Source: Candidatus Woesearchaeota archaeon
GTDB lineage: Archaea; Nanobdellota; Nanobdellia; Woesearchaeales; JABGXB01
Reading direction: 5' to 3'
Assembly: GCA_018675975.1 (NCBI GenBank)
Contig: JABGXB010000002.1
Location: 192,098-256,097 of the forward strand
DNA: 64,000 bases
Of this stretch, positions 4,813 through 56,255 are shown piece after piece (the first letter of the stretch is position 1; each line of letters starts with the position of its first letter). The notes below the pieces were generated by a model that was not told where the DNA came from, made no database searches, and saw only the letters and a program-made list of their open reading frames with translations. Made by a program: the position numbers and the translations under genes.

Positions 4813-6072
4813 GTGGAAGCAGAACAAATCAGTCAAATATATAATAAAATAAATGGAAAAATAGTTAATTATGATGATAGTATAAAAGGTTTGACTAATA
4901 TTGCGTTTAGGCATTTTAGGGATGGAAAATATAAGGATTCATATTCTTCTTTTATAGCAGCTAGACAAATGTCTTTAGAAAATATAGTTCACGATAGAGA
5001 AAAAAGAGAAATTACTAAATTTGATATTGATTATGATTCAATTCATAGTTTACCAATAGAATTTGATAGCATAGATGATGAGGAAAATACTTCATTAGAT
5101 ACTTCCAAATTATATTTTTTAAGAGGTTGTTTAGCCTTTATTGAAAAAGATTATAAACGTGCATTTAGAAATTTTAAAATTGCAAATAATAAAAATAATA
5201 ATAAAAATGGCCAATATGATTATTTATTAAATTTAGAAACAGTTAATGTCTTAGATAAATTATATGACTTAGATATAATTAATGAAAGAGAATATTTAGA
5301 AAACAAAGTAAAAAGTTTAAAAATATTAAATGAAATTAATCCAAATAATATTGAACATATGTATAATTTAGGAATAACTAATATACACTTATATACTGAC
5401 GAAAAAGGTAATATTTTAATTAAAAGTGAAATGCCACCTGACTTTTATGAAAGTTTAAATTTATTAGTAGAAGCATATGAAAGTGACACTTCAAATCCTT
5501 TATATTTTTATGATGCATATAGAATGGTTGCACCAAGTAGTCGAAATATTTCTAATGATATTTTAGATTCCTTCCTAGGAATATATTTTGAAAAAAATTC
5601 TACAATAATAAAACACTTAATCAAAGATAAACAAATCACTAGAGGAATTGTTAGTTTATTATATTCTATTGGTGATGAGATGGCAATAGAATGGGGAAAA
5701 TCCACAAAATATCAAACTAAAGAAATAAGTGATTCACTATTAGAAAAAATAAAAAAAATAAAAGAAAGTCAATTTTTTCAAAAATCACAAATTTTAGAAA
5801 ATTGGAGTGTTAAAAATATACCTAAAATGATTAATTTAACATATCTTGAAAAAATAAGAGTAATAAGCAATATTTCTATAGACATATTAAACAAATTCAG
5901 ATTTTTTTTTACAGAGGAAGAATATAATAATGCCATGTCATCTTCAAAATTATTTCTTGAGACAAATATGAATGCATTAAATCAATTATCAATTGTACAA
6001 GAAGAACAAATTGAAGATACTATTTTAGAAGTATGGAGATCTGAAAATCCAAAATCTGAAGACATTAATTAA
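4813..6072 (+). CDS. Hypothetical protein
   Basis: 419-aa ORF with normal composition and no recognised motif. Confidence 0.5.
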   Translation: MEAEQISQIYNKINGKIVNYDDSIKGLTNIAFRHFRDGKYKDSYSSFIAARQMSLENIVHDREKREITKFDIDYDSIHSLPIEFDSIDDEENTSLDTSKLYFLRGCLAFIEKDYKRAFRNFKIANNKNNNKNGQYDYLLNLETVNVLDKLYDLDIINEREYLENKVKSLKILNEINPNNIEHMYNLGITNIHLYTDEKGNILIKSEMPPDFYESLNLLVEAYESDTSNPLYFYDAYRMVAPSSRNISNDILDSFLGIYFEKNSTIIKHLIKDKQITRGIVSLLYSIGDEMAIEWGKSTKYQTKEISDSLLEKIKKIKESQFFQKSQILENWSVKNIPKMINLTYLEKIRVISNISIDILNKFRFFFTEEEYNNAMSSSKLFLETNMNALNQLSIVQEEQIEDTILEVWRSENPKSEDIN

Positions 6073-10775: not shown

Positions 10776-11474
10776 TTATATTTCAAATCTTGCTTCCTTT
10801 GATAAATACTTTTTTATATGTGATGCATCCATTTCTCCAGTCTCTTGAGGATCAAGATAATAAAGACTTTGAGAACCATCAGAATTAGTTCTTAAAAAAT
10901 GTTTATAATCTATAGCTGACAATTCTAAAGATAATCCTTCACTTACATCTTCCATTAACATTGCTCCAATTTCACCATATTGAATTGCACCAATAAAATA
11001 AGGTGCTAAGACTTCTTTTCCTTTTTCAACTCGAGAATTAGTAGAACTTAAAAATAATTTTTGTCTACAAAAAACATTTGCATATTCTGAAATTTGCTCG
11101 ATCATCATATCATTAATTTCATCATCAACATCATCACAAATATAATAACTCGTATCTATTTTTCTAAGTTTTAAAGCTATATGTAATTGATTAGTAGAAT
11201 TTATTGGGTGAGGGATAGATCCAATATTATATACTCTATGTATTTGACCAGAACCTAAAAATAAAACCTCCTTTGGACATTTAATTTCTGGATTAACTAA
11301 ATTATACATTTGATCACATGTATTGTTTTGTGCAGCTGCTAAATAATCAAATATATTTTTTACATTTGTTAAAATTTGTGGATTTTTTAAAACTTCAGAT
11401 TTTACATACAATGTTCTTTGATAATATTCTTCCAATCTATCTAATTCTTCAGAGTTTAATTCTTCACAATACAT
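10776..11474 (-). CDS. Hypothetical protein
   Basis: 232-aa ORF. A weak glycine-loop-like FLGSGQIHRVYN was noticed, but the protein is too short for a kinase domain. Confidence 0.45.
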   Translation of the reverse strand: MYCEELNSEELDRLEEYYQRTLYVKSEVLKNPQILTNVKNIFDYLAAAQNNTCDQMYNLVNPEIKCPKEVLFLGSGQIHRVYNIGSIPHPINSTNQLHIALKLRKIDTSYYICDDVDDEINDMMIEQISEYANVFCRQKLFLSSTNSRVEKGKEVLAPYFIGAIQYGEIGAMLMEDVSEGLSLELSAIDYKHFLRTNSDGSQSLYYLDPQETGEMDASHIKKYLSKEARFEI

Positions 11475-29104: not shown

Positions 29105-29125
29105 AATTTTACCCGGATCTTAAAG

Positions 29126-29200
29126 TAGCCTCTGCGGGATTCGAACCCGCGACCCCCACATTAAAAGTGTGGTGCTCTAACCAGGCTGAGCTAAGAGGCC
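29126..29200 (-). tRNA. tRNA-Lys (anticodon UUU)
   Basis: Cloverleaf folded by hand: 7-bp acceptor stem (one G-U pair), D stem GCTC/GAGC, anticodon stem CCACA/TGTGG with loop CTTTTAA, T arm GCGGG-TTCGAAT-CCCGC, discriminator A; CCA not encoded. Confidence 0.8.
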
Positions 29201-30194: not shown

Positions 30195-30680
30195 ATGAGT
30201 CATCTTAAATTAGTAGTTAATAATACAGAAAAAAATAAAAAGAAATCTCAAAAAAGAAATTCTTCTCAATCAGTTTTAGATTGTGATCCATTTTCAGAGT
30301 TAAATTTAGCTTATTATGATAAGGATTATAAGCGATTAATTAATATGCAACCAGAAACTAGCGGTTTATTAGTATTAGAAAAATTAAATGCACCAGTACA
30401 ATTATATCAAATTCATGATATTTTAGAAGGAACTTTAAATCAAATTTGTATTAATGATTTACAAAGAGAATTTGCTGGAGAGAATAGAACTTATTGTCCA
30501 TTTTTCACTGAATTTAAACAACATAGTGTATTTGATTTATACAAAGATGCAAATAATGAATTTGGACTCCCAAATAAATTTTTTATGTTCATAAAAGATA
30601 ATAATTTAGATGTTTATGAAATTTATGGACACATGCACAGAGCTGGAAAAGTTATGCAGCGACTTTTTCCAGATCGCTAG
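30195..30680 (+). CDS. Hypothetical protein
   Basis: 161-aa ORF, no recognised motif. Confidence 0.4.
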   Translation: MSHLKLVVNNTEKNKKKSQKRNSSQSVLDCDPFSELNLAYYDKDYKRLINMQPETSGLLVLEKLNAPVQLYQIHDILEGTLNQICINDLQREFAGENRTYCPFFTEFKQHSVFDLYKDANNEFGLPNKFFMFIKDNNLDVYEIYGHMHRAGKVMQRLFPDR

Positions 30681-31566
30681 TTTTATACAATAAATGAAGA
30701 AGATATGCAGATTTACTTTTAATCCCATATAAATTTTCTTTAATCAATTTTGAAACATAATCAATATCATGTTCAATAGTTTTATGTTTTAAACTTAAAA
30801 TATTTTCAACTTTTTCACTCAATAAAATAGGAGTTTTTAAAATTCGATTAATTTCTCCAATTAAAAAAATTATTCTAGATTTAACTTGTTTTTCAATATC
30901 AAGTTTAATATTAGAATCTTTAATATCAAATTTGTTAAACAAAAAAATTGATCTTTTGTGACAAAGGTCAATCAAATTATTAATATGTTTTGATCTTTCA
31001 ATTTCTGGATATGAATTTCTATTATTTAATTGTTTTAATTCTACAACATTAATTAATTTATTTAATAAAATTGCAATTGAACTAATATTTGTTTCAAATA
31101 CAAAATGATCAACTAATTTTTCAGGCAATAATTGTGAAAGATTTTTTAATTCTTCTTTAAACTCATTTAATTCCTCTGATTTAGAATGTTTAATTTTTTT
31201 ATTATTATTACATTTATTATAAAAATCTTTTATTATTACATATAATTTATTATTATATTTATCTCTGGATTTTCTCAACTCTTCAGCATATCTCTTTAAT
31301 CTATTAAAATCATCACTTAGAATATAAAAATCATTATCTTCTACAATTAAATTTAATATTTGTTTTGCAGCCCGTTTTGCATTTTCATTATTTAAATGTT
31401 CATATTGTAATAATGCCAAATAGTAATTATATTCCAAAGTATAAATTTTATTTTGGTGTTTTACATTTCTAAAAACAGCTGCTATTTTTGAGATTTCATG
31501 TTCATGAAATTTTTTAGAATCAACAGTTCCACCCCAAATATTAGAATATGATTTTAATACATCCAT
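30652..31566 (-). CDS. Hypothetical protein
   Basis: 304-aa ORF, no recognised motif. Confidence 0.45.
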   Translation of the reverse strand: MDVLKSYSNIWGGTVDSKKFHEHEISKIAAVFRNVKHQNKIYTLEYNYYLALLQYEHLNNENAKRAAKQILNLIVEDNDFYILSDDFNRLKRYAEELRKSRDKYNNKLYVIIKDFYNKCNNNKKIKHSKSEELNEFKEELKNLSQLLPEKLVDHFVFETNISSIAILLNKLINVVELKQLNNRNSYPEIERSKHINNLIDLCHKRSIFLFNKFDIKDSNIKLDIEKQVKSRIIFLIGEINRILKTPILLSEKVENILSLKHKTIEHDIDYVSKLIKENLYGIKSKSAYLLHLLYKTSDLEKVAA

Positions 31567-31610
31567 GATATATTTAAATAAAAAAAGTTTATAAAATTAA
31601 TTAAAAAAAA

Positions 31611-32174
31611 TTAAATTTTACCAACTAAATCTAAACCTGGCTTTAAAGTTTTATCTCCTGGTTTCCATTGGCACGGTGCAACTTCACCTTTATGTTCTCT
31701 CACATATTGAGCAGCTTGAATTTTTCTTATTAATTCATTAATATCCCGTCCAATACTATTTTCATGCAATTCATATGCTTTTAAAATTCCATCTGGATCA
31801 ATAATAAAACTACCTCTCCAAGATAATCCCTCATCATCAATATATGTACCATAATCACGACAAACTTGTCCAGTTGGATCTGCACCCATAAAGAACCTTA
31901 TTTTTTGAATAGTAGGTGAATTATCAAACCAAGCTTTATGCACAAAAGCAGTATCTGTACTTAGAGAAATAACTTCAGTATTCATTTCTTTTAATTTTTG
32001 ATATGAATCCGCCAATTCACCTAATTCAGTTGGACAAATAAAAGTAAAATCTGCAGGATAAAAAAATAATACAACCCATTTTCCTTTAAAATCAGAAAGA
32101 GAAATATTTTTTATTTCATTATTATAAAATGCTTTAATATTAAAATTTGGTGCTAACTTATTTATTTCTACCAT
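31611..32174 (-). CDS. Peroxiredoxin (AhpC/TSA family, 2-Cys type)
   Basis: Peroxidatic Cys motif FTFICPTE and C-terminal resolving-Cys region (EVAPCQW). Confidence 0.9.
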   Translation of the reverse strand: MVEINKLAPNFNIKAFYNNEIKNISLSDFKGKWVVLFFYPADFTFICPTELGELADSYQKLKEMNTEVISLSTDTAFVHKAWFDNSPTIQKIRFFMGADPTGQVCRDYGTYIDDEGLSWRGSFIIDPDGILKAYELHENSIGRDINELIRKIQAAQYVREHKGEVAPCQWKPGDKTLKPGLDLVGKI

Positions 32175-32216
32175 TGTAAGATTGAAAATTTTAATATTAA
32201 TTATAAATTTTATGTA

Positions 32217-32768
32217 TCAATCAAAGACCCATTTTTTAATAAAATAAAAAAGCAAAAATAAAAATGTAATACTAGTAACATAATACATCACATAAGAATA
32301 ATTTTTTTGTTCAAGTAATACCATACCATAAAATAATGCAAGGGCTAAAAAAATCAATACAAAAATTTTTGCATAATTTGCATATGTACTACTAGTTATT
32401 TTTCTATTATTTAGCAAATAAGATAAAACTAATAATGCAACTCCAAACAAAATTGCAGTTTCAAATATACCACCTAAAAAATTAATTAAAAAAATACTTG
32501 GATTAACTACACCAGACAAAAAACCACTTTGATAATATAAATTATCATCTTTAAATGCAATTGAAGGCAATACAAATACTGTAACTAAAATTATAATTAA
32601 AGTCATTATATGACTTTTTTTAATATTTTTTAAACCAGGATATTTTTCATTAGAAATTAAATACATTATATATAAAATAATAAAAAATCCTAAACCAGTA
32701 AGTAAAATTAAGGCTAAAGTTTTATCTGCATTTAATAATGGATTAATTATATCTTCAAACCGTATCAT
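32217..32768 (-). CDS. Small polytopic membrane protein, paralog 1 of a tandem family of four
   Basis: Four predicted TM segments; shares the [YF]Q[ST]GFL[ST]GV[IV]NP loop motif with neighbours. Confidence 0.55.
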   Translation of the reverse strand: MIRFEDIINPLLNADKTLALILLTGLGFFIILYIMYLISNEKYPGLKNIKKSHIMTLIIILVTVFVLPSIAFKDDNLYYQSGFLSGVVNPSIFLINFLGGIFETAILFGVALLVLSYLLNNRKITSSTYANYAKIFVLIFLALALFYGMVLLEQKNYSYVMYYVTSITFLFLLFYFIKKWVFD

Positions 32769-32770
32769 TA

Positions 32771-33379
32771 TTAATCAAAAAAAATATATTTAAATACATA
32801 ATATATTACAATCAATCCCAATATCGATCCAAATATATTTACAAATTCATTTATATTACCAACTATGTTTGTTGCTCTTAAAAATACTAGAACTACAAAT
32901 GCAACCATAAACCAACCAACTATTTCCCAAGTATTAAAACCCTTTACTTTTGTAGCATTTAAATCAAAATTAGTAGTTCCTTTAATTACAATTAATGAAA
33001 ATAATGCAATAATAACTGCAAGTGAAATTGCAGGAAGACTATTCATAACAACATGAACTGGATTTATTACACCAGTTAAAAAACCTTCAACAAATACACC
33101 CTTTCCATTAGTACTAAAAACAAAATTTGGAACAGTTCCAACTAATGCAATAATAACTGAAATTATAGTAGTAAAACGTCCGTAAGCTTTTTCTTTTTCT
33201 GCTTTATTTGTATCATTATCTTCAATTTTCCACAGTTTCATATTAGAAATTAAAACATAAGGAATTATGTAAAATAGGAAAAACGGAATAAAAAAATGAA
33301 GTAAACCCCATTCTTTTGTAAAATAACAAATCCACTCCTTATATAAAGAGTTTGAATCGCAAACTATATCATTTAACAT
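32771..33379 (-). CDS. Small polytopic membrane protein, paralog 2
   Basis: Same topology; motif FVEGFLTGVINPV; C-terminal ...IFFD. Confidence 0.55.
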   Translation of the reverse strand: MLNDIVCDSNSLYKEWICYFTKEWGLLHFFIPFFLFYIIPYVLISNMKLWKIEDNDTNKAEKEKAYGRFTTIISVIIALVGTVPNFVFSTNGKGVFVEGFLTGVINPVHVVMNSLPAISLAVIIALFSLIVIKGTTNFDLNATKVKGFNTWEIVGWFMVAFVVLVFLRATNIVGNINEFVNIFGSILGLIVIYYVFKYIFFD

Positions 33380-34047
33380 TAAACATTACCTCCAGGTGCG
33401 CCAGCAGGTGGAGTTGTTGCAGTTGGAGGTGTATTAGTTTCACCATCAAAAAACATTAAATAAAACATCCATCCAATAAATGCTAAAAATAAGATTCCAC
33501 CAATAAATTCTTGAGTTAAATATTTTGAACTATCTACAGTCTTTCCAATTACACTTGTATAAAAAATGTAAGTTAATGTTAATGCAATAAATCCAGCATA
33601 CCAAGGACTGTCCATTATAGTTTTAACAACATTATTATTATTACCAGAAGTTGCAGATTGTATTGCAATTAATGCTAAAACTGACATTATTAATACTAAA
33701 CTAACTTGAGGTAAAAATAAATAAACAACAGATACAACATCAGGAAAACCAGCTAAAAAACCAGTTTGAAATTCAACACTAGCTACAGTATTTGCATTAT
33801 TTCCCCAAATTACATGAGGGATAACTAATAATAATGCAAAACATAATGAAACTACTGTTCTAAACTTTTTTGCATTTTTACCACTAAGATCACCTTCAGT
33901 TACTTTTGGAATTTCAATAAAAGTAAGTAATGTATAAAATATAATATAAATTAAAAACAAAGGTATAAATAAATCGAATAAACCGTAATCGCCAATTAAA
34001 TCATTTCTTATAAAATTCTGTAAATTAAAATTTTCAAATCCTGCCAA
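33379..34047 (-). CDS. Small polytopic membrane protein, paralog 3, with Thr/Pro-rich C-terminal tail
   Basis: Same topology; motif EFQTGFLAGF; the GC-rich C-terminal tail TNTPPTATTPPAGAPGGNV is unusual for this genome. Confidence 0.55.
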   Translation of the reverse strand: MAGFENFNLQNFIRNDLIGDYGLFDLFIPLFLIYIIFYTLLTFIEIPKVTEGDLSGKNAKKFRTVVSLCFALLLVIPHVIWGNNANTVASVEFQTGFLAGFPDVVSVVYLFLPQVSLVLIMSVLALIAIQSATSGNNNNVVKTIMDSPWYAGFIALTLTYIFYTSVIGKTVDSSKYLTQEFIGGILFLAFIGWMFYLMFFDGETNTPPTATTPPAGAPGGNV

Positions 34048-34119
34048 ACCTTAAACCTCTTTTTTAATATATATATATTTCAGCAATATTGCTTTATAAA
34101 TGTTACCTTATCATTCAGT

Positions 34120-34692
34120 TTATTCTTTATCCCATGCACCATTCATCCATGCAACGGATGCAACTATTAATACAATTAAAATAATACCTGAAACTAAACC
34201 TGTTTGATATTGATAAAATAATTCATTCCAAATTATTGATAATACTGATGCTTGACCTTCTGCAGTTGAAATTGTAATTGCACCTAAGAATATTAATCCA
34301 ATAATAAAAAAAATTATCCAAATAATATATTTTGCACGATTATCTTTATATTTACCATGTTCATCTAATTCAAAATCAAACCAAGTTGATTCTTTTGAAA
34401 ATATACCGGCAGTCATCATGAATGCAATACCAGCAATTACTAATAATATTGTTTTTGCTAAAACTTCTTCTAAAATTCCAACTAAACTTGCACTTGCAAT
34501 AACAAAAAAACCAATACAAAATGCAACAATTGCATTTAGATTATCTTTTTTTTCACCAAGTACAGAAGTCTTTTCTAAAATTGCAAATGTAATTGCAAAT
34601 ACGATTAAGAACGGAAGAACTACATTGAAAAATCCTAAACCATCTAAAAAACTAATTACTTGACCAAAAGCAGTTGGAGCAACGTCTACCAT
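34120..34692 (-). CDS. Small polytopic membrane protein, divergent paralog 4
   Basis: Similar hydrophobicity pattern; YQYQTGLVSGII motif shifted towards the C-terminus. Confidence 0.5.
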   Translation of the reverse strand: MVDVAPTAFGQVISFLDGLGFFNVVLPFLIVFAITFAILEKTSVLGEKKDNLNAIVAFCIGFFVIASASLVGILEEVLAKTILLVIAGIAFMMTAGIFSKESTWFDFELDEHGKYKDNRAKYIIWIIFFIIGLIFLGAITISTAEGQASVLSIIWNELFYQYQTGLVSGIILIVLIVASVAWMNGAWDKE

Positions 34693-40219: not shown

Positions 40220-41863
40220 TTGGTAGTCAGAAATAGTTTTAATAGTGAAACTAGAAGTTTAGATAATAATATTAATGAAAGAGTTAAATTTCACTCTGAA
40301 AATATAAAAAAAGCACAAGAATACAAACAACATGTAATTGATAATTGGAATTCTATAGATCATAAAGTAAAAAATCCAAATGAATGGATAAATTATTACA
40401 ATAGTGTAATTTCTTCAAATCAACAAAAAATAAATAATTTAAAACCACAAAATAAAAAAAAACCGGTTTTTGTATTTACTCTCATAGTAGCAATATTATT
40501 TTTTTCATATTTTATTTTACCACAAAATCAATTAACAGGTTCATTAATTGGAGATGAAATTAATTCCCCACTAGAAAATCAAATTGAATTTGAAATTCTA
40601 AACCCTCAATCATATCCAATTACAGGTAGAACTTGGCAAGTTAATTTTAAAACAAAAGGAACTGCAGATTTATTTATTAAAGCATCAAATGGAACAACTT
40701 GGTCTAAAAACAATGAAACTGAGGATTTATTATTTTTAAAAATTCAATGTGGATCAGAAATATTACCATATGAATGGGTTGATGGTGGAATTTTAATTAA
40801 AAATTATTCTTGTAATCAAACAAGTCATGAAACAGTTAAAGTAATTACAGATGGTAAACATACAATAGAATTTAGGTTTGGTAATTTAATTGCATATGCA
40901 AATAATAATGCAACTAATGCCCCAGTAATACATGCAATTAACTTAACTACTTCATACAATAGTGGAGAAAATGGAACTAATGAAAATATAACAGTAAATA
41001 TTTTTTCAAATGATACTGAAGTGCCAGATAATGAAGTAAAAGATATTATTGACTGGAGATTGTCAGGAGAATCTATAGCAATTTTAAATATGCCATTCGA
41101 AGGAGAAAGTAATGTAACTTTTACTAAAGATTATGGTGATTATCAATCAAATGGAACAGTTAATGGTGCAACTAATCAAACTAATACTGGTTTTGATGGA
41201 CAAGGTGCTTATAGTTTTGATGGAATTGATGATTTTATTAATATAAGTGGATTCACAACAGAAAATGAAGTTGTAAGATCAATTGGCTTTTGGTTTAAGC
41301 CTACAGTCGATTATGATACAACAAAAGGATTTGTATCTTTAGTTAATGGAGATGATTATGAAATTGCAATAAATGCAGGAAAAATGTTTTTTAATTTCTC
41401 AGGCGATACTGTTTATTCAACAATTGATAATTGGACTTCAGGTAATTTTTTTCACATCATGACAACAGTTGATATTAATTTAAAATTATATGTAAATGCA
41501 ACATTAGATAATTCAACAAGTGTTACACCTGCATATATAATTCAAAACGATACAAGTTCAAATGTAGCATTATTTTATAGCAGCGGTGATATTGTTCTTT
41601 CAGGATCCTGCTTTACAAACTCATGTGGAGATCCAGGAGTTTCACCATTTATTATACAAAATGCTACAAGTCATAATACAAGTTTTGTAAATCAAACAGG
41701 AGGATTTTGTATTACTGACAATAATTGTAATGATCAAGACTTATCTTGTGGTTCACCTAATGATGGATCATTTTTAATAAAAGATGAAGTTGGAACAATT
41801 GTATCATATATTGATGCAAATGGAACTTTATGCCTAACGGGAAATTTAGTACAAAATAATTGA
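40220..41863 (+). CDS. Type II membrane-anchored surface protein with LamG/concanavalin-like jelly-roll domain and many N-glycosylation sequons
   Basis: About 80-aa cytoplasmic N-terminus, one TM helix (PVFVFTLIVAILFFSYFIL), then LamG-like motifs (AYSFDGIDDFINISGF, SIGFWFKP, NWTSGNFFHIMTTVD, LKLYVNATLDNS) and dense N-x-S/T sites. Confidence 0.6.
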   Translation: MVVRNSFNSETRSLDNNINERVKFHSENIKKAQEYKQHVIDNWNSIDHKVKNPNEWINYYNSVISSNQQKINNLKPQNKKKPVFVFTLIVAILFFSYFILPQNQLTGSLIGDEINSPLENQIEFEILNPQSYPITGRTWQVNFKTKGTADLFIKASNGTTWSKNNETEDLLFLKIQCGSEILPYEWVDGGILIKNYSCNQTSHETVKVITDGKHTIEFRFGNLIAYANNNATNAPVIHAINLTTSYNSGENGTNENITVNIFSNDTEVPDNEVKDIIDWRLSGESIAILNMPFEGESNVTFTKDYGDYQSNGTVNGATNQTNTGFDGQGAYSFDGIDDFINISGFTTENEVVRSIGFWFKPTVDYDTTKGFVSLVNGDDYEIAINAGKMFFNFSGDTVYSTIDNWTSGNFFHIMTTVDINLKLYVNATLDNSTSVTPAYIIQNDTSSNVALFYSSGDIVLSGSCFTNSCGDPGVSPFIIQNATSHNTSFVNQTGGFCITDNNCNDQDLSCGSPNDGSFLIKDEVGTIVSYIDANGTLCLTGNLVQNN

Positions 41864-41872
41864 GGTTAAAAA

Positions 41873-43039
41873 ATGAATCAAAAAATAAAAATAACAAAAT
41901 TAGCATATTTAATTTTTGTATTTATTATTGTGAATACAATCATAATTAGTGCTGCGAATGTTATTGTAAAAAATGGAGAAATTACAGCAAATGATTTAGT
42001 AATTGATACAAGTACTGTATCAGTAGATCCAACAAATAATAGAGTTGGAATAGGAACGACCTCAGCTCAAACAACATTAGAAGTAGCAGATACTAGTTGG
42101 AGTAGTGGCGCACCTTATGGAAATATTTTACAAATTGCAGGTAAAGAAACATTTTTTAATGACAATTGGGGACATTTACTAATTACAGATTCAAATTCAA
42201 GTACCGGTAATGGTGGTATGATTAGTTTTGGTATCGGAAGAACAATAGGGGTTGATGTTGCACCATTTGCAACAATAAAATCATCGTATGATGGATCAAA
42301 TAATGGTTCATTAATTTTTATGACTAGAGGTGCAGGTGTAAATGTAACTGAAAGAATGAGAATTAATAGTGCCGGAGAAATAGGTATCGGCCTTACAGCA
42401 GCTACAAGTAATGCATTAGAAATTGGTGGAAATGGACAGGGTGGTGCAATAGGTGGCGGTTATGCCACAGTAATTAGAGGTTTAACTGCAATAGACGTTA
42501 ATTCAGGTTCAACAGCATTAACTGTTGAACAAGCAAATGTGGGAAATATTGCAACATTTAATGATGCAGGAACCCCTAAAGTAGTAATTTTAGATGGTGG
42601 TAATGTTGGAATTAATACAAGTGCACCAAGTGAATTTTTAGAAATAAATGGAAGATTAAAAGTTAATTTACTTGCAGCTGCAACTGCAAATACACTATGT
42701 TATAATAATACAGGAGTATTAAGTTCATGTACTTCATCCATAAAATATAAAGAAGATGTTCAAAATTTAACTAATGGATTAAATCATTTAAATCAAATGA
42801 GATCTGTTAATTATAAATGGAAAGGAAGAGACGAAAGAGATATTGGTTTTATTGCAGAAGAAATGAATGAAATTGATCCAATTTATGTAACACTAGATAA
42901 AAATGGAGATGTACAAGGTGTTAAATATAATTTATTAACTGCAGTACTCGCAAAAGCAATTCAAGAACAACAAAAACAAATAAATCAATTAAAAGAAATT
43001 GTTTGTTTAGATCACCCAGAACAAGAAATATGTAATTAA
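41873..43039 (+). CDS. Tail-fibre-like surface protein with C-terminal intramolecular chaperone auto-processing domain (Peptidase S74-like)
   Basis: N-terminal signal or anchor; fibre-type repeats (NRVGIGTTSAQTTLEV, GNVGINTSAPSEFLEINGRLKV); C-terminal SSIKYKEDVQNL...DIGFIAEEMNEIDPIYV...GVKYNLLTAVLAKAIQEQQKQINQLKE with a Ser-Lys dyad typical of endosialidase/tail-spike chaperone domains. Confidence 0.6.
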   Translation: MNQKIKITKLAYLIFVFIIVNTIIISAANVIVKNGEITANDLVIDTSTVSVDPTNNRVGIGTTSAQTTLEVADTSWSSGAPYGNILQIAGKETFFNDNWGHLLITDSNSSTGNGGMISFGIGRTIGVDVAPFATIKSSYDGSNNGSLIFMTRGAGVNVTERMRINSAGEIGIGLTAATSNALEIGGNGQGGAIGGGYATVIRGLTAIDVNSGSTALTVEQANVGNIATFNDAGTPKVVILDGGNVGINTSAPSEFLEINGRLKVNLLAAATANTLCYNNTGVLSSCTSSIKYKEDVQNLTNGLNHLNQMRSVNYKWKGRDERDIGFIAEEMNEIDPIYVTLDKNGDVQGVKYNLLTAVLAKAIQEQQKQINQLKEIVCLDHPEQEICN

Positions 43040-49838: not shown

Positions 49839-50669
49839 ATGAAAGAAAAAAATAAAATTATTGTATTTCAAGATAAAAATATTAGAAAAATGTGGCATAA
49901 TGACGAATGGTACTTTTCTGTTGTAGATATTATTTCCGTCTTAACTGACAGCCCCACTCCAAGACAATATTGGGGTAAAATCAAAGATAGAGAATTTAAA
50001 GCTTTTGAGTTGTCCCCAATTTGGGTACAACTGAAATTAATATCTCAAGATAGTAAATCTTACTCAACTGATTGTATAAATACAAAAAATGCATTTAGAC
50101 TCATTCAGTCCGTTCCCTCAAAAAAAGCCGAACCCTTTAAACAATGGTTGGCACAAGTAGGACATGAAAGAATAGAAGAAATTGAAAATCCTGAACTAGG
50201 ACAAAATAGAGTAAAAGAATATTATAAACTCAAAGGTTATCCAAAAGAATGGATTGATAAAAGACTGAGAGGAATTTCAATTAGACAAGAATTAACAGAT
50301 GAATGGAAAAATAAAAACATCAAAACACAAAATGAGTTTGCAATTTTAACTAATGAAATATCAAAAGCAAGTTTTGGAAAAACAATTAGTGAATATAAAA
50401 AATTTAAAAATATTAAAAATAACAAACAAAATTTAAGAGATCACATGACAGATTGGGAATTAATTTTAAATATGATAGGAGAAAAAGCAACTACAGATAT
50501 TACAAAATAAATTGATTCTCAAGGATTGGAAGAATGTAAAGACTCAGCCAATAAAGGTGGTAATATTGCAAAAAGAACAAGAAAGGATTTAGAAAAAAAC
50601 ATTGGAAAACAAATAGTTTCAAAAGAAAACTTTTTACCAAAACAAAAAAATAAAAAAAAGCTAAATTAA
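49839..50669 (+). pseudogene. DinD/RhuM-family (Bro-N domain) DNA-damage-inducible-like gene interrupted by an in-frame TAA at 50508-50510
   Basis: N-terminal Bro-N-like region (VFQDKNIRKMWHNDEWYFSVVDIISVL). The 52 codons after the in-frame stop encode ...GGNIAKRTRKDLEKNIGKQIVSKENFL, which matches the conserved family C-terminus as recalled from memory, so the first stop is not the native end. GC content is visibly above the local background. Confidence 0.5.
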
Positions 50670-52026: not shown

Positions 52027-52506
52027 TTAATTAAAAGCAGTATCGTGTTTTCCTTCTTTTATTTCTTTAATCATCTTAATTGCTTTAAGACCATTACAAG
52101 TAACACCCATAGCGTTCATTGTACCTAGAATTTCTAATGATTTTGTTTTAATAGTAGCACCTAATAATCCATCAGCTTTCATATTTGCAACTTTTTTTAC
52201 TTGATCTATTGTAAAATCTGCAACAAAATCTGATTGTGGTACTGCCGAACCAGATTTTATTCCTGCCTCTTGTTTAATTAATTGAGATGCAGGAGGAGTA
52301 CCAATTTTAATAGTAAATTCTTTTGTATCAGTATCAACTATAACAGTAACTGGAACTTGCATTCCTTTAAAATCACTAGTTTTTTTATTAATATCTGAAA
52401 CCACTTGACCAATATTAACTTTCAAAGGACCTAATTTTGGACCTAATGGAGGAGCTGCTGTAGCTTTTCCACCTTCTATTAAAACTTCTATAGATTCTTT
52501 TGCCAT
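52027..52506 (-). CDS. rpl11: 50S ribosomal protein L11 (uL11)
   Basis: Conserved GGKATAAPPLGPKLGPLKVN N-terminal domain. Confidence 0.9.
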   Translation of the reverse strand: MAKESIEVLIEGGKATAAPPLGPKLGPLKVNIGQVVSDINKKTSDFKGMQVPVTVIVDTDTKEFTIKIGTPPASQLIKQEAGIKSGSAVPQSDFVADFTIDQVKKVANMKADGLLGATIKTKSLEILGTMNAMGVTCNGLKAIKMIKEIKEGKHDTAFN

Positions 52507-52547
52507 ACAGGCAAGAAAATTATATCTATTTATAAAATTAGCCTAAT

Positions 52548-53177
52548 TTAAAGCAAATTAGAAAGTTCATTTTCCAAATCACTTGAAAATTTTTCTGTAA
52601 ATTGTGAATATAATGAAGGCTCTGATTCAATTACTTTACATCTATACGTTTCTAATAAAGCAAGACCATTTTTTAATTCATCCATATCAAATTCTTTTTG
52701 TTTTAAATCACTACTAAATAAATTTTTATTAAATCTATTATGACCATATAATTCAAACATTTTTTTTAAATTATCAAAATTATCATCAGGGATTTGTCTA
52801 AATTTATTAAAATGTACAAATGACTCGCCATCAAATTGTAATGTACCAAATTCCACAGAATTTAATAATTTAAATGAATCTAAATAATCACTATAAGAAT
52901 CAAAATCATCATGACAAACAGAACCTAATTGTAAAGCTACATTTAAACTTTCAATTTTAGATAAGTAATCAGGATCTTTAAAATCTAATGAAAACATCGC
53001 ATTAAATAATTTTTTTCCTTTTTTTTTCAATTCCAATAAATATAAATTACTTTCTTGAGAAGAAATTAATGGTTCATAAAAATCTGGACTTAAATCACAA
53101 ATTTCATGAGATTTCCCATGAGGAAGTGATTCAACAATACTTAATTTAGTATAATTATTCATATTTATGACATACAA
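52548..53177 (-). CDS. Hypothetical protein (in the NusG/Spt5 position upstream of L11 but not Spt5-like)
   Basis: 209-aa ORF; no NGN or KOW motif. Confidence 0.45.
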   Translation of the reverse strand: MYVINMNNYTKLSIVESLPHGKSHEICDLSPDFYEPLISSQESNLYLLELKKKGKKLFNAMFSLDFKDPDYLSKIESLNVALQLGSVCHDDFDSYSDYLDSFKLLNSVEFGTLQFDGESFVHFNKFRQIPDDNFDNLKKMFELYGHNRFNKNLFSSDLKQKEFDMDELKNGLALLETYRCKVIESEPSLYSQFTEKFSSDLENELSNLL

Positions 53178-53247
53178 TATGTGTTTTTAAACTAATACAT
53201 TGTAGAATATGTAGTTCAAAGATTAACTACTGTGTTGTGGTGATTAT

Positions 53248-54720
53248 TCAATTTATTTGATTTTTATCTAAAGATCTAATTTCACTCTTAAAAAATTCTT
53301 CTAAAAATATAGAAATAGATGAAAATTTGCTTAAAAGCTCAAAATAAGGCCTATTTAGGTTTTTAACAGATTTATCTACATCTAATATAGCCAAACCTAT
53401 TTTGTTTTCATTTATAGCAATATTTTGATTATGTTGAAGTTTTAATTTAGTTTCCATATCTCTAATAAATTTACTTATTCTTAACATATCTTCACTAGCA
53501 GGAATTTTTCTATTTAATATAAAATGAAAATTATTAATTATTAAACTTGCAATTACTTTAGTAGTTTTACTTGATTTGAATATTTTGTTATAATCAGGTT
53601 CCCCTTGTCTATCATAAGCATGTTTTAATATCAATAGTAAATCTAAATAACCAGAACCTTTTGTTTCAGTTCTAAATGGAATATCAATAACTTTAACTGA
53701 TAAAGGCTTTAATTTTTCTAAAAAAATTTTATCATGATCCCTCATTGCTTCATTAAAAAGATTTTCAAACGCCACATTATTAGGCTTAGCCATATATAAT
53801 TTTTGATAATTCATTTCCATTAATTTGTAATATCTTAACATTAAATCCAAATAAATTAAAAAATATACATTTTGATCTAATCTATGTGCACGAATTAATT
53901 TTACAGCAGAAGGCATAACACTCAATGAATTCCACATTCTGCCTAAAATAGTACTTTCAACATTATAACCCTCATGTCTAATTTCAGCATGAAGTTTTTT
54001 TAAATAAATATTTATTTTTCTATCAAATTCAATTGAATCTTTAATTTTATCTAAATTATCTTTAAATAAATTTAAACCAGAATTTAAATTTTCAACTAAT
54101 TGAAAATTAATTTTTGCTCTATCTTTGATATTATTATTATTTGAATTAGAAAATTTAACTATTTGCAAATTATATTCTTCAATTAATTTAGATAAGATAT
54201 AAATTTCTTTTTCTAATTGAATCATATTTAATTCACATTTATTAAATTCGATGTTAATTTCTGTTACTATGTTATTACCACGTGCTATAATGTCTTTATT
54301 TAAATCTTTTTTAATAAAATTTTGATTAGATTCAAAACTGTTTCCAGGAGCAAAATGTTCTGTTAGAAATTCAATTTCTTCTGAATCAATTATTAATATT
54401 GCTTTTGATACGGAATCCAAAATTTCACCAATTTTATTTAATACAAAAAAAATTGAATAAATTTGTTTTGAAAAATTATTTCTTGGCGTACTAATTACTC
54501 CACGATTTTGATCTAAAACATCACCAGATAATTTACTCATTGAAAAATCCATTTTATTTTCTGAATGTAAATATCTTGAAATTTGATCAGATTGTGATCT
54601 TAAAATAACTCCTAATTTTTTTAATTCAGAATCATTTTCTTCAAAATTTTTATTAACAATATGTTGAGTTGAACTAACATCACTTGAAATTTCACTTAAA
54701 TCCATATTTATAAAATGCAT
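53248..54720 (-). CDS. Large hypothetical protein (490 aa)
   Basis: Long ORF with normal composition, no recognised motif. Confidence 0.5.
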   Translation of the reverse strand: MHFINMDLSEISSDVSSTQHIVNKNFEENDSELKKLGVILRSQSDQISRYLHSENKMDFSMSKLSGDVLDQNRGVISTPRNNFSKQIYSIFFVLNKIGEILDSVSKAILIIDSEEIEFLTEHFAPGNSFESNQNFIKKDLNKDIIARGNNIVTEINIEFNKCELNMIQLEKEIYILSKLIEEYNLQIVKFSNSNNNNIKDRAKINFQLVENLNSGLNLFKDNLDKIKDSIEFDRKINIYLKKLHAEIRHEGYNVESTILGRMWNSLSVMPSAVKLIRAHRLDQNVYFLIYLDLMLRYYKLMEMNYQKLYMAKPNNVAFENLFNEAMRDHDKIFLEKLKPLSVKVIDIPFRTETKGSGYLDLLLILKHAYDRQGEPDYNKIFKSSKTTKVIASLIINNFHFILNRKIPASEDMLRISKFIRDMETKLKLQHNQNIAINENKIGLAILDVDKSVKNLNRPYFELLSKFSSISIFLEEFFKSEIRSLDKNQIN

Positions 54721-54736
54721 AATCTGATTTATAAAA

Positions 54737-56197
54737 TTAGCTATCTAATTTTGAAATTAATGACCTCATAACATTAAAATCAAGTCCAATTTGTTCAAAT
54801 TTTGTTGCATGTTTTGAATCAGCTCTTAACATTTCTAAACTTAAATTTGAAACATACCATAAAAATGTTTTTTCTTGTTTACAAAAATCTAATTCACTAT
54901 TTAATATAAAATTAGTATAATCCTTTAAATCAAATTCAAAACCCTTATGCTCAAAATATCTTTTTGAATATTTAAAATAATTTGAAAATATAAACATTTG
55001 ATAATTATAAAAATCATTAAATTGCATTTTTCTAAAATTATCATCACTATAATGTTGCATAAATTCACTTGCACCTTGTTTATAATTTTCAATTGATAAA
55101 AATCGACCTAATGGGGATTTCATTAATTTTTCTTTTAATTTTTTTGAATCAAAATTTTCATTTATATAATCATCTAAATAATCTATAAAATTAGAATCAG
55201 AATTATCTTTACCTTGAATATTCATAATGAATTTTGATAAATCTTTATCACAACCAGATATAATATTTTCATATAACATATTTAATTCAGTTTGAGATTC
55301 AAATTTAAAAAAAGAATTTAAATAATTTTCATTATCAATAATTAAAAATCTAAGTGCATTTAAAAAAATTTCAAATCTCATCTCTTTTTCATTTAAATCG
55401 TTTGGCAAAATCCATTCAAAATTGGTTTTTGAATCAAATAAAAAATTCAATCTATAATTAATTGCAGATGCGCTATATTTGTATAATTTTTCAACTCTTG
55501 ATTTTGATAAAATTGAAAGTGAAGATAATTCATAAATTTGTTTTAAATCTCCACTAACTGAATTATTTTGATTACCTTTAAAAATTGAAAATGATTGTTC
55601 TAAATTATTTTTATCTAATACAAGTGGACGCTCATATAATTTTGAACCAGTTTCAATTGTATATCTAATTATTTTTTCTGCATAACTTTGATATGGTTTT
55701 GAAAAAAAAATATATTGATTTGAATTTTTAAGTGTAGGAGAAAAATTAATATCATATTCCCTTGAAAATAATAAACTAAAATAAATATCCATTTCTTTTT
55801 TTAATTGCTTTAATAATAATTTATTATTTTCAAAATAATCACTATTTAATTCAATATTAATATCAATATCACTTTCGCCCATAGCAATGCCGTTAATAAT
55901 TTCACATAAATCATATTCATTTTTTGATTGTTGAATAGAACCAAAAAAATAAATTGAACTAATATTGGATTTAAATTCATCTAATGAATTAGATGATATT
56001 CGTTTAATGGAAGTTACATAATCCTTAAAGTCAATAGAAGGATTTTGTGATTTAATAAAAATTAAATTATTATCTAAAGAATCACCTAAAGAAAAAAATA
56101 AGTCTAATGCTTTTTTTGTTTGCACTTCATAAAAATTACTTATATTTATTTTTTCTGATGATAAATCACTAGATAAATTAATTTGAGGAAATTCCAT
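54737..56197 (-). CDS. Large hypothetical protein (486 aa) with a possible nucleotidyltransferase-like GS...SDIDINIE segment
   Basis: YFFGSIQQSK...GESDIDINIEL loosely resembles the pol-beta-superfamily hG[GS]x(n)Dh[DE]h motif, but the spacing is atypical. Confidence 0.45.
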   Translation of the reverse strand: MEFPQINLSSDLSSEKINISNFYEVQTKKALDLFFSLGDSLDNNLIFIKSQNPSIDFKDYVTSIKRISSNSLDEFKSNISSIYFFGSIQQSKNEYDLCEIINGIAMGESDIDINIELNSDYFENNKLLLKQLKKEMDIYFSLLFSREYDINFSPTLKNSNQYIFFSKPYQSYAEKIIRYTIETGSKLYERPLVLDKNNLEQSFSIFKGNQNNSVSGDLKQIYELSSLSILSKSRVEKLYKYSASAINYRLNFLFDSKTNFEWILPNDLNEKEMRFEIFLNALRFLIIDNENYLNSFFKFESQTELNMLYENIISGCDKDLSKFIMNIQGKDNSDSNFIDYLDDYINENFDSKKLKEKLMKSPLGRFLSIENYKQGASEFMQHYSDDNFRKMQFNDFYNYQMFIFSNYFKYSKRYFEHKGFEFDLKDYTNFILNSELDFCKQEKTFLWYVSNLSLEMLRADSKHATKFEQIGLDFNVMRSLISKLDS

Positions 56198-56255
56198 TAA
56201 GTTACAAAAATAAATGTTTTTTTTAAAAATATGCTTACTGTATTATATATAAAAA

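What the first reader, a model, noticed from the sequence alone, without database searches (positions are those of the whole stretch)
52548..56197. Three consecutive uncharacterised proteins (209, 490, 486 aa) wedged between ribosomal protein L11 and the thermosome operon
The canonical archaeal neighbourhood of L11 (secE-nusG upstream, L1-L10-L12 downstream) is absent. Instead three co-oriented ORFs of unknown function sit here. The 486-aa protein contains a YFFGS...GESDIDINIEL segment reminiscent of nucleotidyltransferase-fold active sites, so it could be a divergent NTase (a CCA-adding-like or cyclic-nucleotide-synthase-like enzyme are possibilities I cannot separate). Three large same-strand unknowns in a row are candidates for a lineage-specific system.
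Basis: inference. Interest (0 to 1): 0.5.

Follow-up and report, generated by a model that had tools for sequence, protein, structure and literature searches.

The report
Three orphan genes, one nucleotidyltransferase-like
Three real but almost relative-less genes sit between the chaperonin and ribosomal protein L11 genes of a marine Woesearchaeota genome; the first probably encodes a very divergent nucleotidyltransferase, the other two stay unidentified, and nothing shows the three work together.

Summary
Three co-oriented minus-strand ORFs (486, 490 and 209/204 aa) lie between the thermosome gene and L11 in a roughly 23% GC Woesearchaeota genome from oxygen-minimum-zone water.

They are near-orphans. 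An exhaustive HMMER scan of 1.84 billion representative proteins found one distant relative of the 486-aa protein (P0008, 34% identity), one close relative of the 209-aa protein (P0005, 70%), and none for the 490-aa protein.

The NTase idea is supported by sequence only:
- Sub-threshold Pfam Polbeta/NTP_transf_2 hits for both the window protein and P0008.
- G86-S87, D110-x-D112 and D149 are invariant between the two.
- A profile built from verified Woesearchaeota NTases picks P0008 as its only extra hit among 5,013 ORFs (E = 3e-4).

AlphaFold models were poor (pLDDT 38 and 44), and fold searches returned no NTase, so the fold is unproven.

The CCA-adding and cyclic-nucleotide-synthase readings failed their membership tests. 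A conserved three-gene system is not supported: P0008 sits next to an FKBP gene, 80 thermosome loci lack all three proteins, and runs of unknown ORFs are common in this window.

The 209-aa gene evolves very fast (dN/dS 0.76, against 0.03 for the adjacent L11), yet its frame is clearly kept open by selection.

Overall: lineage-specific, fast-evolving genes of modest interest.

The parts
54737..56197 (-). 486-aa protein. It has an N-terminal helical lead (about residues 1-75), a putative Pol-beta-type nucleotidyltransferase core (about residues 76-155) and a C-terminal region of about 330 residues of unknown fold.
   Evidence: ORF. Pfam Polbeta E = 0.0028 at residues 76-151. One distant homolog, P0008, at 34% identity and E = 6.5e-18. 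Identical 486-aa gene calls in other assemblies.
55736..55963 (-). Putative NTase catalytic core (residues 79-154): strand-GS, a 13-residue lineage-specific insert, strand-DxD, a helix, and strand-D.
   Evidence: Translation. Secondary-structure order H-E-H-E-H-E in both AF2 models, at low confidence. hhalign against verified NTases aligns GS with GS and DID with DID, P = 4e-4.
55937..55942 (-). G86-S87 of the hG[GS] motif.
   Evidence: invariant in P0008.
55862..55870 (-). D110-I-D112, the putative metal-binding DxD.
   Evidence: invariant in P0008.
55751..55753 (-). D149, the putative third catalytic carboxylate (E147-x-D149-I-N-F-S block).
   Evidence: The DINFS block is invariant between the window protein and P0008. 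Its assignment as the third carboxylate is inference.
55874..55912 (-). 13-residue insert (DLCEIINGIAMGE) between the GS and DxD motifs. It is absent from P0008, which has the canonical GS-x10-DID spacing.
   Evidence: Alignments.
53248..54720 (-). 490-aa protein (485 aa if translated from Met6). Soluble, pI 8.2, with no detectable relative, domain, repeat or paralog.
52548..53177 (-). 209-aa protein (more likely 204 aa from the ATG at 53162). Acidic and soluble. It evolves very fast, but the frame is maintained.
   Evidence: The ortholog P0005/L006 is 70% identical and also lies directly upstream of L11. dN/dS is 0.76 against 0.03 for L11. Frame-maintenance test.
54721..54736 (-). 16-bp spacer between the 486 stop and the 490 start (31 bp if Met6 is the start). 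The two genes are probably co-transcribed.
   Evidence: co-transcription is inferred from spacing only.
56198..56255 (-). 58-bp intergenic region after the thermosome stop codon. It carries an oligo-T run and a TTTATATATA element about 45-55 bp upstream of the 486 ATG. This could be an archaeal terminator plus a TATA box.
   Evidence: Sequence; the functional reading is inference, not tested.

Best explanation
These are three genuine protein-coding genes restricted to one lineage and diverging rapidly. They belong to a marine oxygen-minimum-zone Woesearchaeota (DPANN) genome and are not a demonstrable conserved system. The 486-aa protein, together with its single distant relative P0008, forms a tiny and very divergent branch of the Pol-beta-type nucleotidyltransferase superfamily, closest to the 'minimal' NTases (Pfam Polbeta / NTP_transf_2). 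Inferred mechanism: G86-S87 position the NTP triphosphate. D110, D112 and D149 bind two Mg2+ ions. An NMP is then transferred onto a hydroxyl group of an acceptor held by the unique C-terminal region of about 330 residues. The acceptor is unknown. The 490-aa gene follows 16 bp later and is probably co-transcribed, so it may be a partner or target. The 490-aa and 209-aa proteins are soluble and probably helix-rich (inferred only from their low glycine and proline content). Their lack of relatives is best explained by very fast sequence evolution, as measured for the 209-aa gene. Shown here: the ORFs are real, they are orphans, the motifs are conserved, the 209-aa gene evolves fast, and the protein is not a CCA-adding or CD-NTase family member. 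Inferred only: the NTase fold, catalytic activity, co-transcription and any functional link.
For: The ORFs are real and identical in several assemblies, including Saanich Inlet metagenomes and two NCBI Woesearchaeota MAGs. Orphan status: only 6 hits in 1.84e9 representatives, of which only P0008 and P0005 are not the same genes; word-index searches agree. There are no hits in PDB sequences, NCBIfam, PHROGs, phage records or IMG/VR. NTase signals: Polbeta E = 0.0028 for the window protein. P0008 gives NTP_transf_2 E = 0.0054 and Polbeta E = 0.013, and PADLOC PDC-S09 E = 0.0014 and 0.0026 over residues 58-141. GS, DxD and D are invariant at 34% overall identity, and P0008 has canonical spacing. 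hhalign against three Pfam-verified Woesearchaeota NTases gives P = 4e-4 with the motifs in register. An HMM of those NTase domains retrieves P0008 as the only additional hit among 5,013 ORFs (E = 3e-4), and the window protein in the next round. Fast evolution: dN/dS 0.76 for the 209-aa gene against 0.03 for L11 on the same contig pair. Only 0.05% of simulations keep that frame open. All three proteins lack transmembrane segments.
Confidence: 0.6

Rival explanations
1. None of the three is an enzyme of a known fold. The GS/DxD resemblance is chance in a low-complexity, AT-rich proteome, and all three are fast-evolving structural or interaction proteins of unknown type.
Against: Two proteins only 34% identical both hit NTase-clan models at the homologous segment. 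The three motif positions are invariant. A verified-NTase HMM singles out P0008 among 5,013 ORFs at E = 3e-4. The predicted order of secondary-structure elements matches the minimal NTase core.
Confidence: 0.2
2. The 486-490 pair, possibly with the 209-aa gene, is an NTase-based conflict module: toxin-antitoxin, abortive infection, antiviral, or host interaction in a DPANN symbiont. In this reading the NTase nucleotidylates its partner or an RNA, as MNT-HEPN and AbiE systems do.
For: The 486 and 490 genes are 16 bp apart. The best matches are to minimal NTases and to the archaea-enriched candidate defence family PDC-S09. DPANN genomes are reported to be enriched in AbiE and single-gene PDC candidates (PMC12988326). 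The very fast evolution of the adjacent 209-aa gene and the patchy distribution are typical of conflict genes.
Against: The window proteins have no PADLOC hit. There is no HEPN Rx4-6H motif in the 490- or 209-aa proteins. No AbiEii model matches. P0008 has no 490-like neighbour. The block sits among housekeeping genes with no repeat or island boundary. There are no viral homologs.
Confidence: 0.12
3. The 486-aa protein is a cyclic (oligo)nucleotide synthase (CD-NTase, SMODS or cGAS-like) that signals to the downstream proteins.
For: Only the generic GS/DxD/D NTase motifs and the presence of two downstream unknown genes.
Against: No SMODS, CD-NTase or Mab-21 Pfam hit at E <= 1. No CBASS cyclase hit in PADLOC. 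By contrast, canonical CCA enzymes in relatives do cross-hit SMODS. No recognisable effector or sensor domain lies downstream.
Confidence: 0.03
4. The 486-aa protein is this organism's highly diverged class I CCA-adding enzyme.
For: The size (486 aa) is similar to archaeal CCA enzymes. The one tRNA gene in the window lacks an encoded CCA, so the organism needs such an enzyme. In two other Woesearchaeota a CCA-enzyme gene lies within about 6 kb of the thermosome gene.
Against: Woesearchaeota CCA enzymes are easily recognised, with tRNA_NucTransf2 and CAA_C in all three examples and BLAST E values of 1e-29 to 1e-34 to my recalled A. fulgidus sequence. The 486-aa protein and P0008 have neither domain at E <= 1. 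hhalign of the A1 alignment against those CCA enzymes gives 0.14% probability over 20 columns.
Confidence: 0.02

Closest known systems
Minimal Pol-beta-type nucleotidyltransferases (Pfam PF18765 Polbeta and PF01909 NTP_transf_2; MNT-type proteins, including the roughly 270-aa NTase-plus-helical-domain proteins of other Woesearchaeota in L014, L074 and L080)
   Same: The hG[GS] ... DxD ... D motif set is in the same order. The predicted helix-strand alternation matches. The best, though weak, profile matches are to these families.
   Different: All scores are below the family thresholds. There is a 13-residue insert between GS and DxD in the window protein. An N-terminal lead of about 75 residues and a C-terminal region of about 330 residues have no counterpart. 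No HEPN partner is present.
Archaeal class I CCA-adding enzyme
   Same: Similar overall length. The NTase motifs lie near the N-terminus. The genes sit near the thermosome gene in some Woesearchaeota.
   Different: It lacks the tRNA_NucTransf2 and CAA_C domains, and there is no profile-profile similarity beyond the DxD.
PADLOC candidate defence family PDC-S09 (single-gene, unvalidated, enriched in Archaea; PMC12988326)
   Same: P0008 residues 58-141 match two PDC-S09 profiles weakly, at E = 0.0014 and 0.0026.
   Different: The PDC-S09 profiles are about 100 positions long, against a 426-486-aa protein. The window protein itself gives no PADLOC hit. The hit probably reflects only the shared NTase core.
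MNT-HEPN and AbiE (AbiEii) NTase toxin-antitoxin modules
   Same: An NTase gene is tightly followed by a second gene, and distribution is patchy.
   Different: The downstream proteins have no HEPN motif. No AbiEii or AbiEi models match. The proteins are three to four times larger than MNT and HEPN proteins.

Membership tests
Pol-beta-type nucleotidyltransferase superfamily | hG[GS] motif at the end of the first core strand | tested here: met
   YFFG86S87, invariant in P0008 (HYFGS).
Pol-beta-type nucleotidyltransferase superfamily | [DE]h[DE]h metal-binding motif on the next strand, normally 9-13 residues after GS | tested here: met
   D110-I-D112-I is invariant. The spacing is canonical (10 residues) in P0008 but 22 residues in the window protein because of a 13-residue insert.
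Pol-beta-type nucleotidyltransferase superfamily | Third catalytic carboxylate (h[DE]h) on a following strand | tested here: inconclusive
   E147-x-D149-INFS is invariant and predicted as a strand. Without a reliable structure, its role as the third carboxylate is an assignment by position.
Pol-beta-type nucleotidyltransferase superfamily | Profile match above the curated family threshold | tested here: not met
   Polbeta 18.2 bits against a cut-off of 26.9. For P0008, NTP_transf_2 scores 17.5 bits against 21. Indirect support comes from hhalign (P = 4e-4) and from a verified-NTase HMM reaching P0008 at E = 3e-4 in 5,013 ORFs.
Pol-beta-type nucleotidyltransferase superfamily | Alpha-beta-alpha-beta-alpha-beta palm fold | tested here: inconclusive
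Archaeal class I CCA-adding enzyme | tRNA_NucTransf2 (PF09249) neck domain and CAA_C (PF21133) body/tail domains | tested here: not met
   Neither domain is hit at E <= 1, whereas 3 of 3 CCA enzymes from fetched archaeal loci have both.
Archaeal class I CCA-adding enzyme | Full-length profile similarity to CCA enzymes of related organisms | tested here: not met
   hhalign of A1 (486-aa protein plus P0008) against A5 (the three CCA enzymes) gives probability 0.14% over 20 columns around the DxD only.
CD-NTase / SMODS cyclic-nucleotide synthases (CBASS-like) | Match to CD-NTase, SMODS or CBASS cyclase profiles | tested here: not met
   No such Pfam or PADLOC hit at E <= 1 for the window protein or P0008.
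CD-NTase / SMODS cyclic-nucleotide synthases (CBASS-like) | Adjacent effector with a recognisable nucleotide-sensing or killing domain | tested here: not met
   The 490-aa and 209-aa proteins have no recognisable domain.
MNT-HEPN toxin-antitoxin | Adjacent HEPN protein with an Rx4-6H motif | tested here: not met
   No Rx4-6H in the 490- or 209-aa proteins. The single RADSKH in the 486-aa protein is not conserved in P0008.
   P0008 is followed by an FKBP gene. None of 80 thermosome loci from GTDB genomes holds any of the three. The 490-aa protein has no relative. Only the 209-L11 adjacency recurs, in one close relative. The sample of relatives is too small for a strong negative.

The most novel reading that the evidence does not exclude
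The 486-490 pair, perhaps with the 209-aa gene, is a previously unseen NTase-based conflict module of a DPANN archaeon, acting in antiviral defence, toxin-antitoxin control or host manipulation. The divergent NTase would nucleotidylate its co-transcribed partner or an RNA. An arms race would explain the near-neutral evolutionary rate and the absence of relatives among 15 billion proteins.
Probability: 0.12. Interest if true: 0.55.

Novelty: new variant of a known kind. Interest (0 to 1): 0.27.

Why it matters
If the NTase assignment holds, the 486-aa protein and P0008 define a very small new branch of the Pol-beta NTase superfamily with a unique large C-terminal region, in a group of archaea (DPANN) whose biology is largely unknown. 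The measured contrast between a nearly neutrally evolving but clearly maintained gene and its ultra-conserved neighbour L11 shows concretely why much of the DPANN proteome has no detectable homologs. Beyond that, this is the ordinary 'dark matter' of a reduced archaeal genome, and no evidence points to a new multi-gene system.

Tried and rejected
- **Homolog searches.** Word-index searches for each protein returned only the same genes or fragments, plus P0005.
- **Exhaustive HMMER.** A search with the three proteins concatenated added only P0008.
- **Profile libraries.** NCBIfam, PADLOC, PHROGs and PDB sequence or profile searches gave nothing for the window proteins.
- **Genome scans.** The GTDB scan with the 486-aa protein found nothing. 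The thermosome-anchored synteny scan fetched 80 loci, none with relatives of the three.
- **Metagenome scans.** Two scans aimed at orthologs from the 70%-identity relative were both empty. dN/dS could therefore not be measured for the 486 and 490 genes.
- **Viral and phage searches.** All negative.
- **Paralogy and internal repeats.** None among the three proteins.
- **Island boundaries.** A repeat search found only chance AT-rich matches.
- **Apparent polymorphisms.** Three differences in contig L001 all lie at the contig end and were dismissed as assembly errors.
- **Archaeal primase (PriS/PriL) reading of the DxD.** Considered and dropped from inspecting the sequences: I saw no SGxGxH motif in the 486-aa protein, and the 490-aa protein has a single cysteine, too few for a PriL Fe-S cluster.
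- **Literature.** A search on Saanich Inlet Woesearchaeota gave nothing relevant.
Full report
**Observation**

The region holds three co-oriented minus-strand ORFs exactly as reported:
- 54737-56197, 486 aa.
- 53248-54720, 490 aa.
- 52548-53177, 209 aa with a TTG start.

Pfam confirms the neighbours. On the same strand, reading downstream, the gene order is DnaG-like Toprim protein, two-KH-domain protein, thermosome, 486, 490, 209, L11. The next genes beyond L11, a DUF212 protein and D-aminoacyl-tRNA deacylase, are on the opposite strand. So L11 lacks its textbook neighbours here.

Gene calls on identical public contigs use internal ATGs for two genes, giving 485 and 204 aa. GC content is 18-30% throughout, with no compositional break and no flanking repeats. 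Intergenic gaps are 58 bp (thermosome to 486), 16 bp (486 to 490), 70-85 bp (490 to 209) and 41 bp (209 to L11).

**Source**

The 490-aa protein is identical to NCBI HOK68_00205 of a 'Candidatus Woesearchaeota archaeon'. The same DNA occurs at 100% identity in two NCBI MAGs and in Saanich Inlet oxygen-minimum-zone metagenomes.

**Are the genes real?**

At this base composition about 9% of random codons are stops, so open frames of about 490 codons are not chance (my arithmetic).

For the 209-aa gene there is a direct test. Contig L006, from a related strain, carries an ortholog directly upstream of an L11 gene. That L11 is 99% identical at the protein level to the window's L11. The 209-aa ortholog differs at 81 of 486 nt with no indel and no stop, and only 0.05% of random-substitution simulations keep the frame open.

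Its dN/dS is nevertheless 0.76 (dN 0.18, dS 0.23), against 0.03 for L11 on the same pair of contigs. This is not significantly different from 1 (Fisher p = 0.34). The gene is therefore maintained but evolves extremely fast.

**Orphan status**

- Word-index searches of 5.8 billion clusters returned only the same genes, fragments of them, and P0005, which is 70% identical to the 209-aa protein.
- I concatenated the three proteins (1,185 aa) for the single exhaustive HMMER job against 1.84 billion representatives. It gave six hits. Only two are not the genes themselves: P0005 and P0008, a 426-aa protein 34% identical to residues 43-415 of the 486-aa protein (E = 6.5e-18).
- The 490-aa protein has no relative at all.
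- NCBIfam, PADLOC, PHROGs, PDB sequences, GenBank phages and IMG/VR gave nothing for the window proteins.
- The three proteins are not paralogs of each other and have no internal repeats.
- None has a transmembrane-like segment, and all are poor in glycine and proline.

**The NTase question: sequence evidence**

- The window protein gives a sub-threshold Pfam Polbeta hit (E = 0.0028, 18.2 bits against a 26.9-bit cut-off) at residues 76-151.
- P0008 independently gives NTP_transf_2 (E = 0.0054) and Polbeta (E = 0.013) at the homologous segment. It also gives weak hits to two roughly 100-position PADLOC PDC-S09 profiles.
- In the pairwise alignment G86-S87, D110-I-D112 and E147-x-D149-INFS are invariant.
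- P0008 has the canonical hGS-x10-DID spacing. The window protein carries a 13-residue insert between the two motifs.
- I extracted three Woesearchaeota proteins with above-threshold NTP_transf_2 and Polbeta matches from the fetched loci. hhalign of the 486/P0008 pair against them aligned GS with GS and DID with DID (P = 4e-4, probability 35%). This comparison is biased, because I chose those three by a motif regex.
- Less circular: an HMM of their NTase domains, run over all 5,013 ORFs of the fetched DNA, found P0008 as the only additional hit (E = 3e-4). The window protein entered in the next iteration, but was not reached directly.

**The NTase question: structural evidence**

This is inconclusive. 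AF2 on the two-sequence alignment gave pLDDT 38 for the full length and 44 for the N-terminal 240 residues. The core elements scored 55-76 and follow a helix-strand-helix-strand-helix-strand order.

I put the probability of a Pol-beta NTase fold at about 0.8, on sequence grounds only.

**Which kind of NTase?**

The CCA-adding reading was tested directly.
- The window's single tRNA gene lacks an encoded CCA, so the organism does need such an enzyme.
- Using my recalled A. fulgidus CCA sequence as a probe, I found three canonical CCA enzymes in the fetched loci. Two are in Woesearchaeota, both within about 6 kb of the thermosome gene.
- All three carry tRNA_NucTransf2 and CAA_C domains. The 486-aa protein and P0008 have neither at E <= 1.
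- hhalign against the three gives 0.14% probability.

For the other readings:
- Cyclic-nucleotide synthase: no SMODS, CD-NTase or CBASS model matches, and no effector-like domain lies downstream.
- MNT-HEPN: neither downstream protein has an Rx4-6H motif.

The closest known relatives are therefore the generic minimal NTases. The N-terminal lead of about 75 residues and the C-terminal region of about 330 residues are unique to this pair.

**Is it a three-gene system?**

- P0008 lies on a 2.3-kb contig (26% GC). It is followed by an FKBP-type isomerase gene and preceded by a divergently oriented gene, with no 490- or 209-like neighbour.
- Eighty thermosome-anchored loci from GTDB genomes, about 35 of them Woesearchaeota or Nanoarchaeota, contain none of the three proteins. 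The best thermosome identity was only 60%, so no close relative was sampled.
- In L022, the one locus with thermosome and L11 about 2 kb apart, the intervening genes are unrelated small ORFs.
- Runs of unknown ORFs are common in this window: 32217-34692 holds four co-oriented ORFs with no Pfam hit, and there are several others.
- The only positive hint is the 16-bp gap between the 486 and 490 genes. TATA-like elements upstream of 486, 209 and L11 suggest separate promoters for those three, which is sequence-based inference.

**Interpretation**

Most likely (0.6), these are lineage-restricted, fast-diverging genes of a DPANN archaeon. The first encodes a divergent Pol-beta-type NTase with an intact catalytic motif set and an unknown acceptor, and is probably co-transcribed with the 490-aa gene.

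The rivals are:
- No NTase at all (0.2).
- An NTase-based conflict module (0.12). This is compatible with the fast evolution, the patchy distribution and the reported enrichment of single-gene candidate defence families in DPANN (PMC12988326), but no defining feature of a known system was met.
- A cyclic-nucleotide synthase (0.03).
- A CCA-adding enzyme (0.02).

**Verdict**

Novelty is limited to a small, divergent NTase branch plus two true orphans. Interest is modest.

Noticed in passing
window 30652-34692 (-): Another run of co-oriented ORFs with no Pfam hit at E <= 1e-3: 304, 183, 202, 222 and 190 aa, interrupted only by a peroxiredoxin gene at 31611-32174. Runs of unknown genes are common in this genome.
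   Followed up: partly
window 41873-43039 (+), with neighbour 40220-41863 (+): A 388-aa protein with a Peptidase_S74 domain (intramolecular chaperone of endosialidase or tail-fibre type, E = 2.3e-11). This domain is typical of phage tail fibres and is unexpected in a Woesearchaeota chromosome. It may be a surface fibre or a viral remnant.
   Followed up: no
window 49839-50510 (+): A Bro-N domain protein (E = 5e-11), a domain typical of viruses and mobile elements, between the thymidylate kinase and D-aminoacyl-tRNA deacylase genes. It is not among the genes listed for the identical NCBI contigs.
   Followed up: no
window 29125-29200 (-): The tRNA-Lys(UUU) gene is followed by CTT rather than CCA, so the organism depends on a CCA-adding enzyme. 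That enzyme is not encoded in the parts of this window that I scanned.
   Followed up: partly
L039 about 6.1-7.4 kb; L023 about 3.0-4.1 kb: In two other Woesearchaeota genomes a canonical CCA-adding enzyme gene lies within about 6 kb of the thermosome gene. This could be loose linkage or coincidence.
   Followed up: partly
L006 compared with window 52027-53177: Synonymous divergence is higher in the 209-aa gene (dS 0.23) than in the adjacent L11 gene (dS 0.14) for the same strain pair. This suggests stronger codon or sequence constraint on L11, or a locally raised mutation or recombination rate.
   Followed up: no
P0006 (ENA, 119 aa): A predicted protein that joins an ACT-domain N-terminus to 52 residues matching the middle of the 209-aa protein (96-100% identity). 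It is most likely an assembly chimera.
   Followed up: no
L022 10143-10910 (+): L11 of another Woesearchaeota MAG is 255 aa long. It carries a C-terminal extension of about 95 residues, charged and rich in Lys, Ala and Pro, that the window's 159-aa L11 lacks.
   Followed up: no
window 4813-6072 (+) and 10776-11474 (-): Further sizeable ORFs (419 and 232 aa) with no Pfam match.
   Followed up: no
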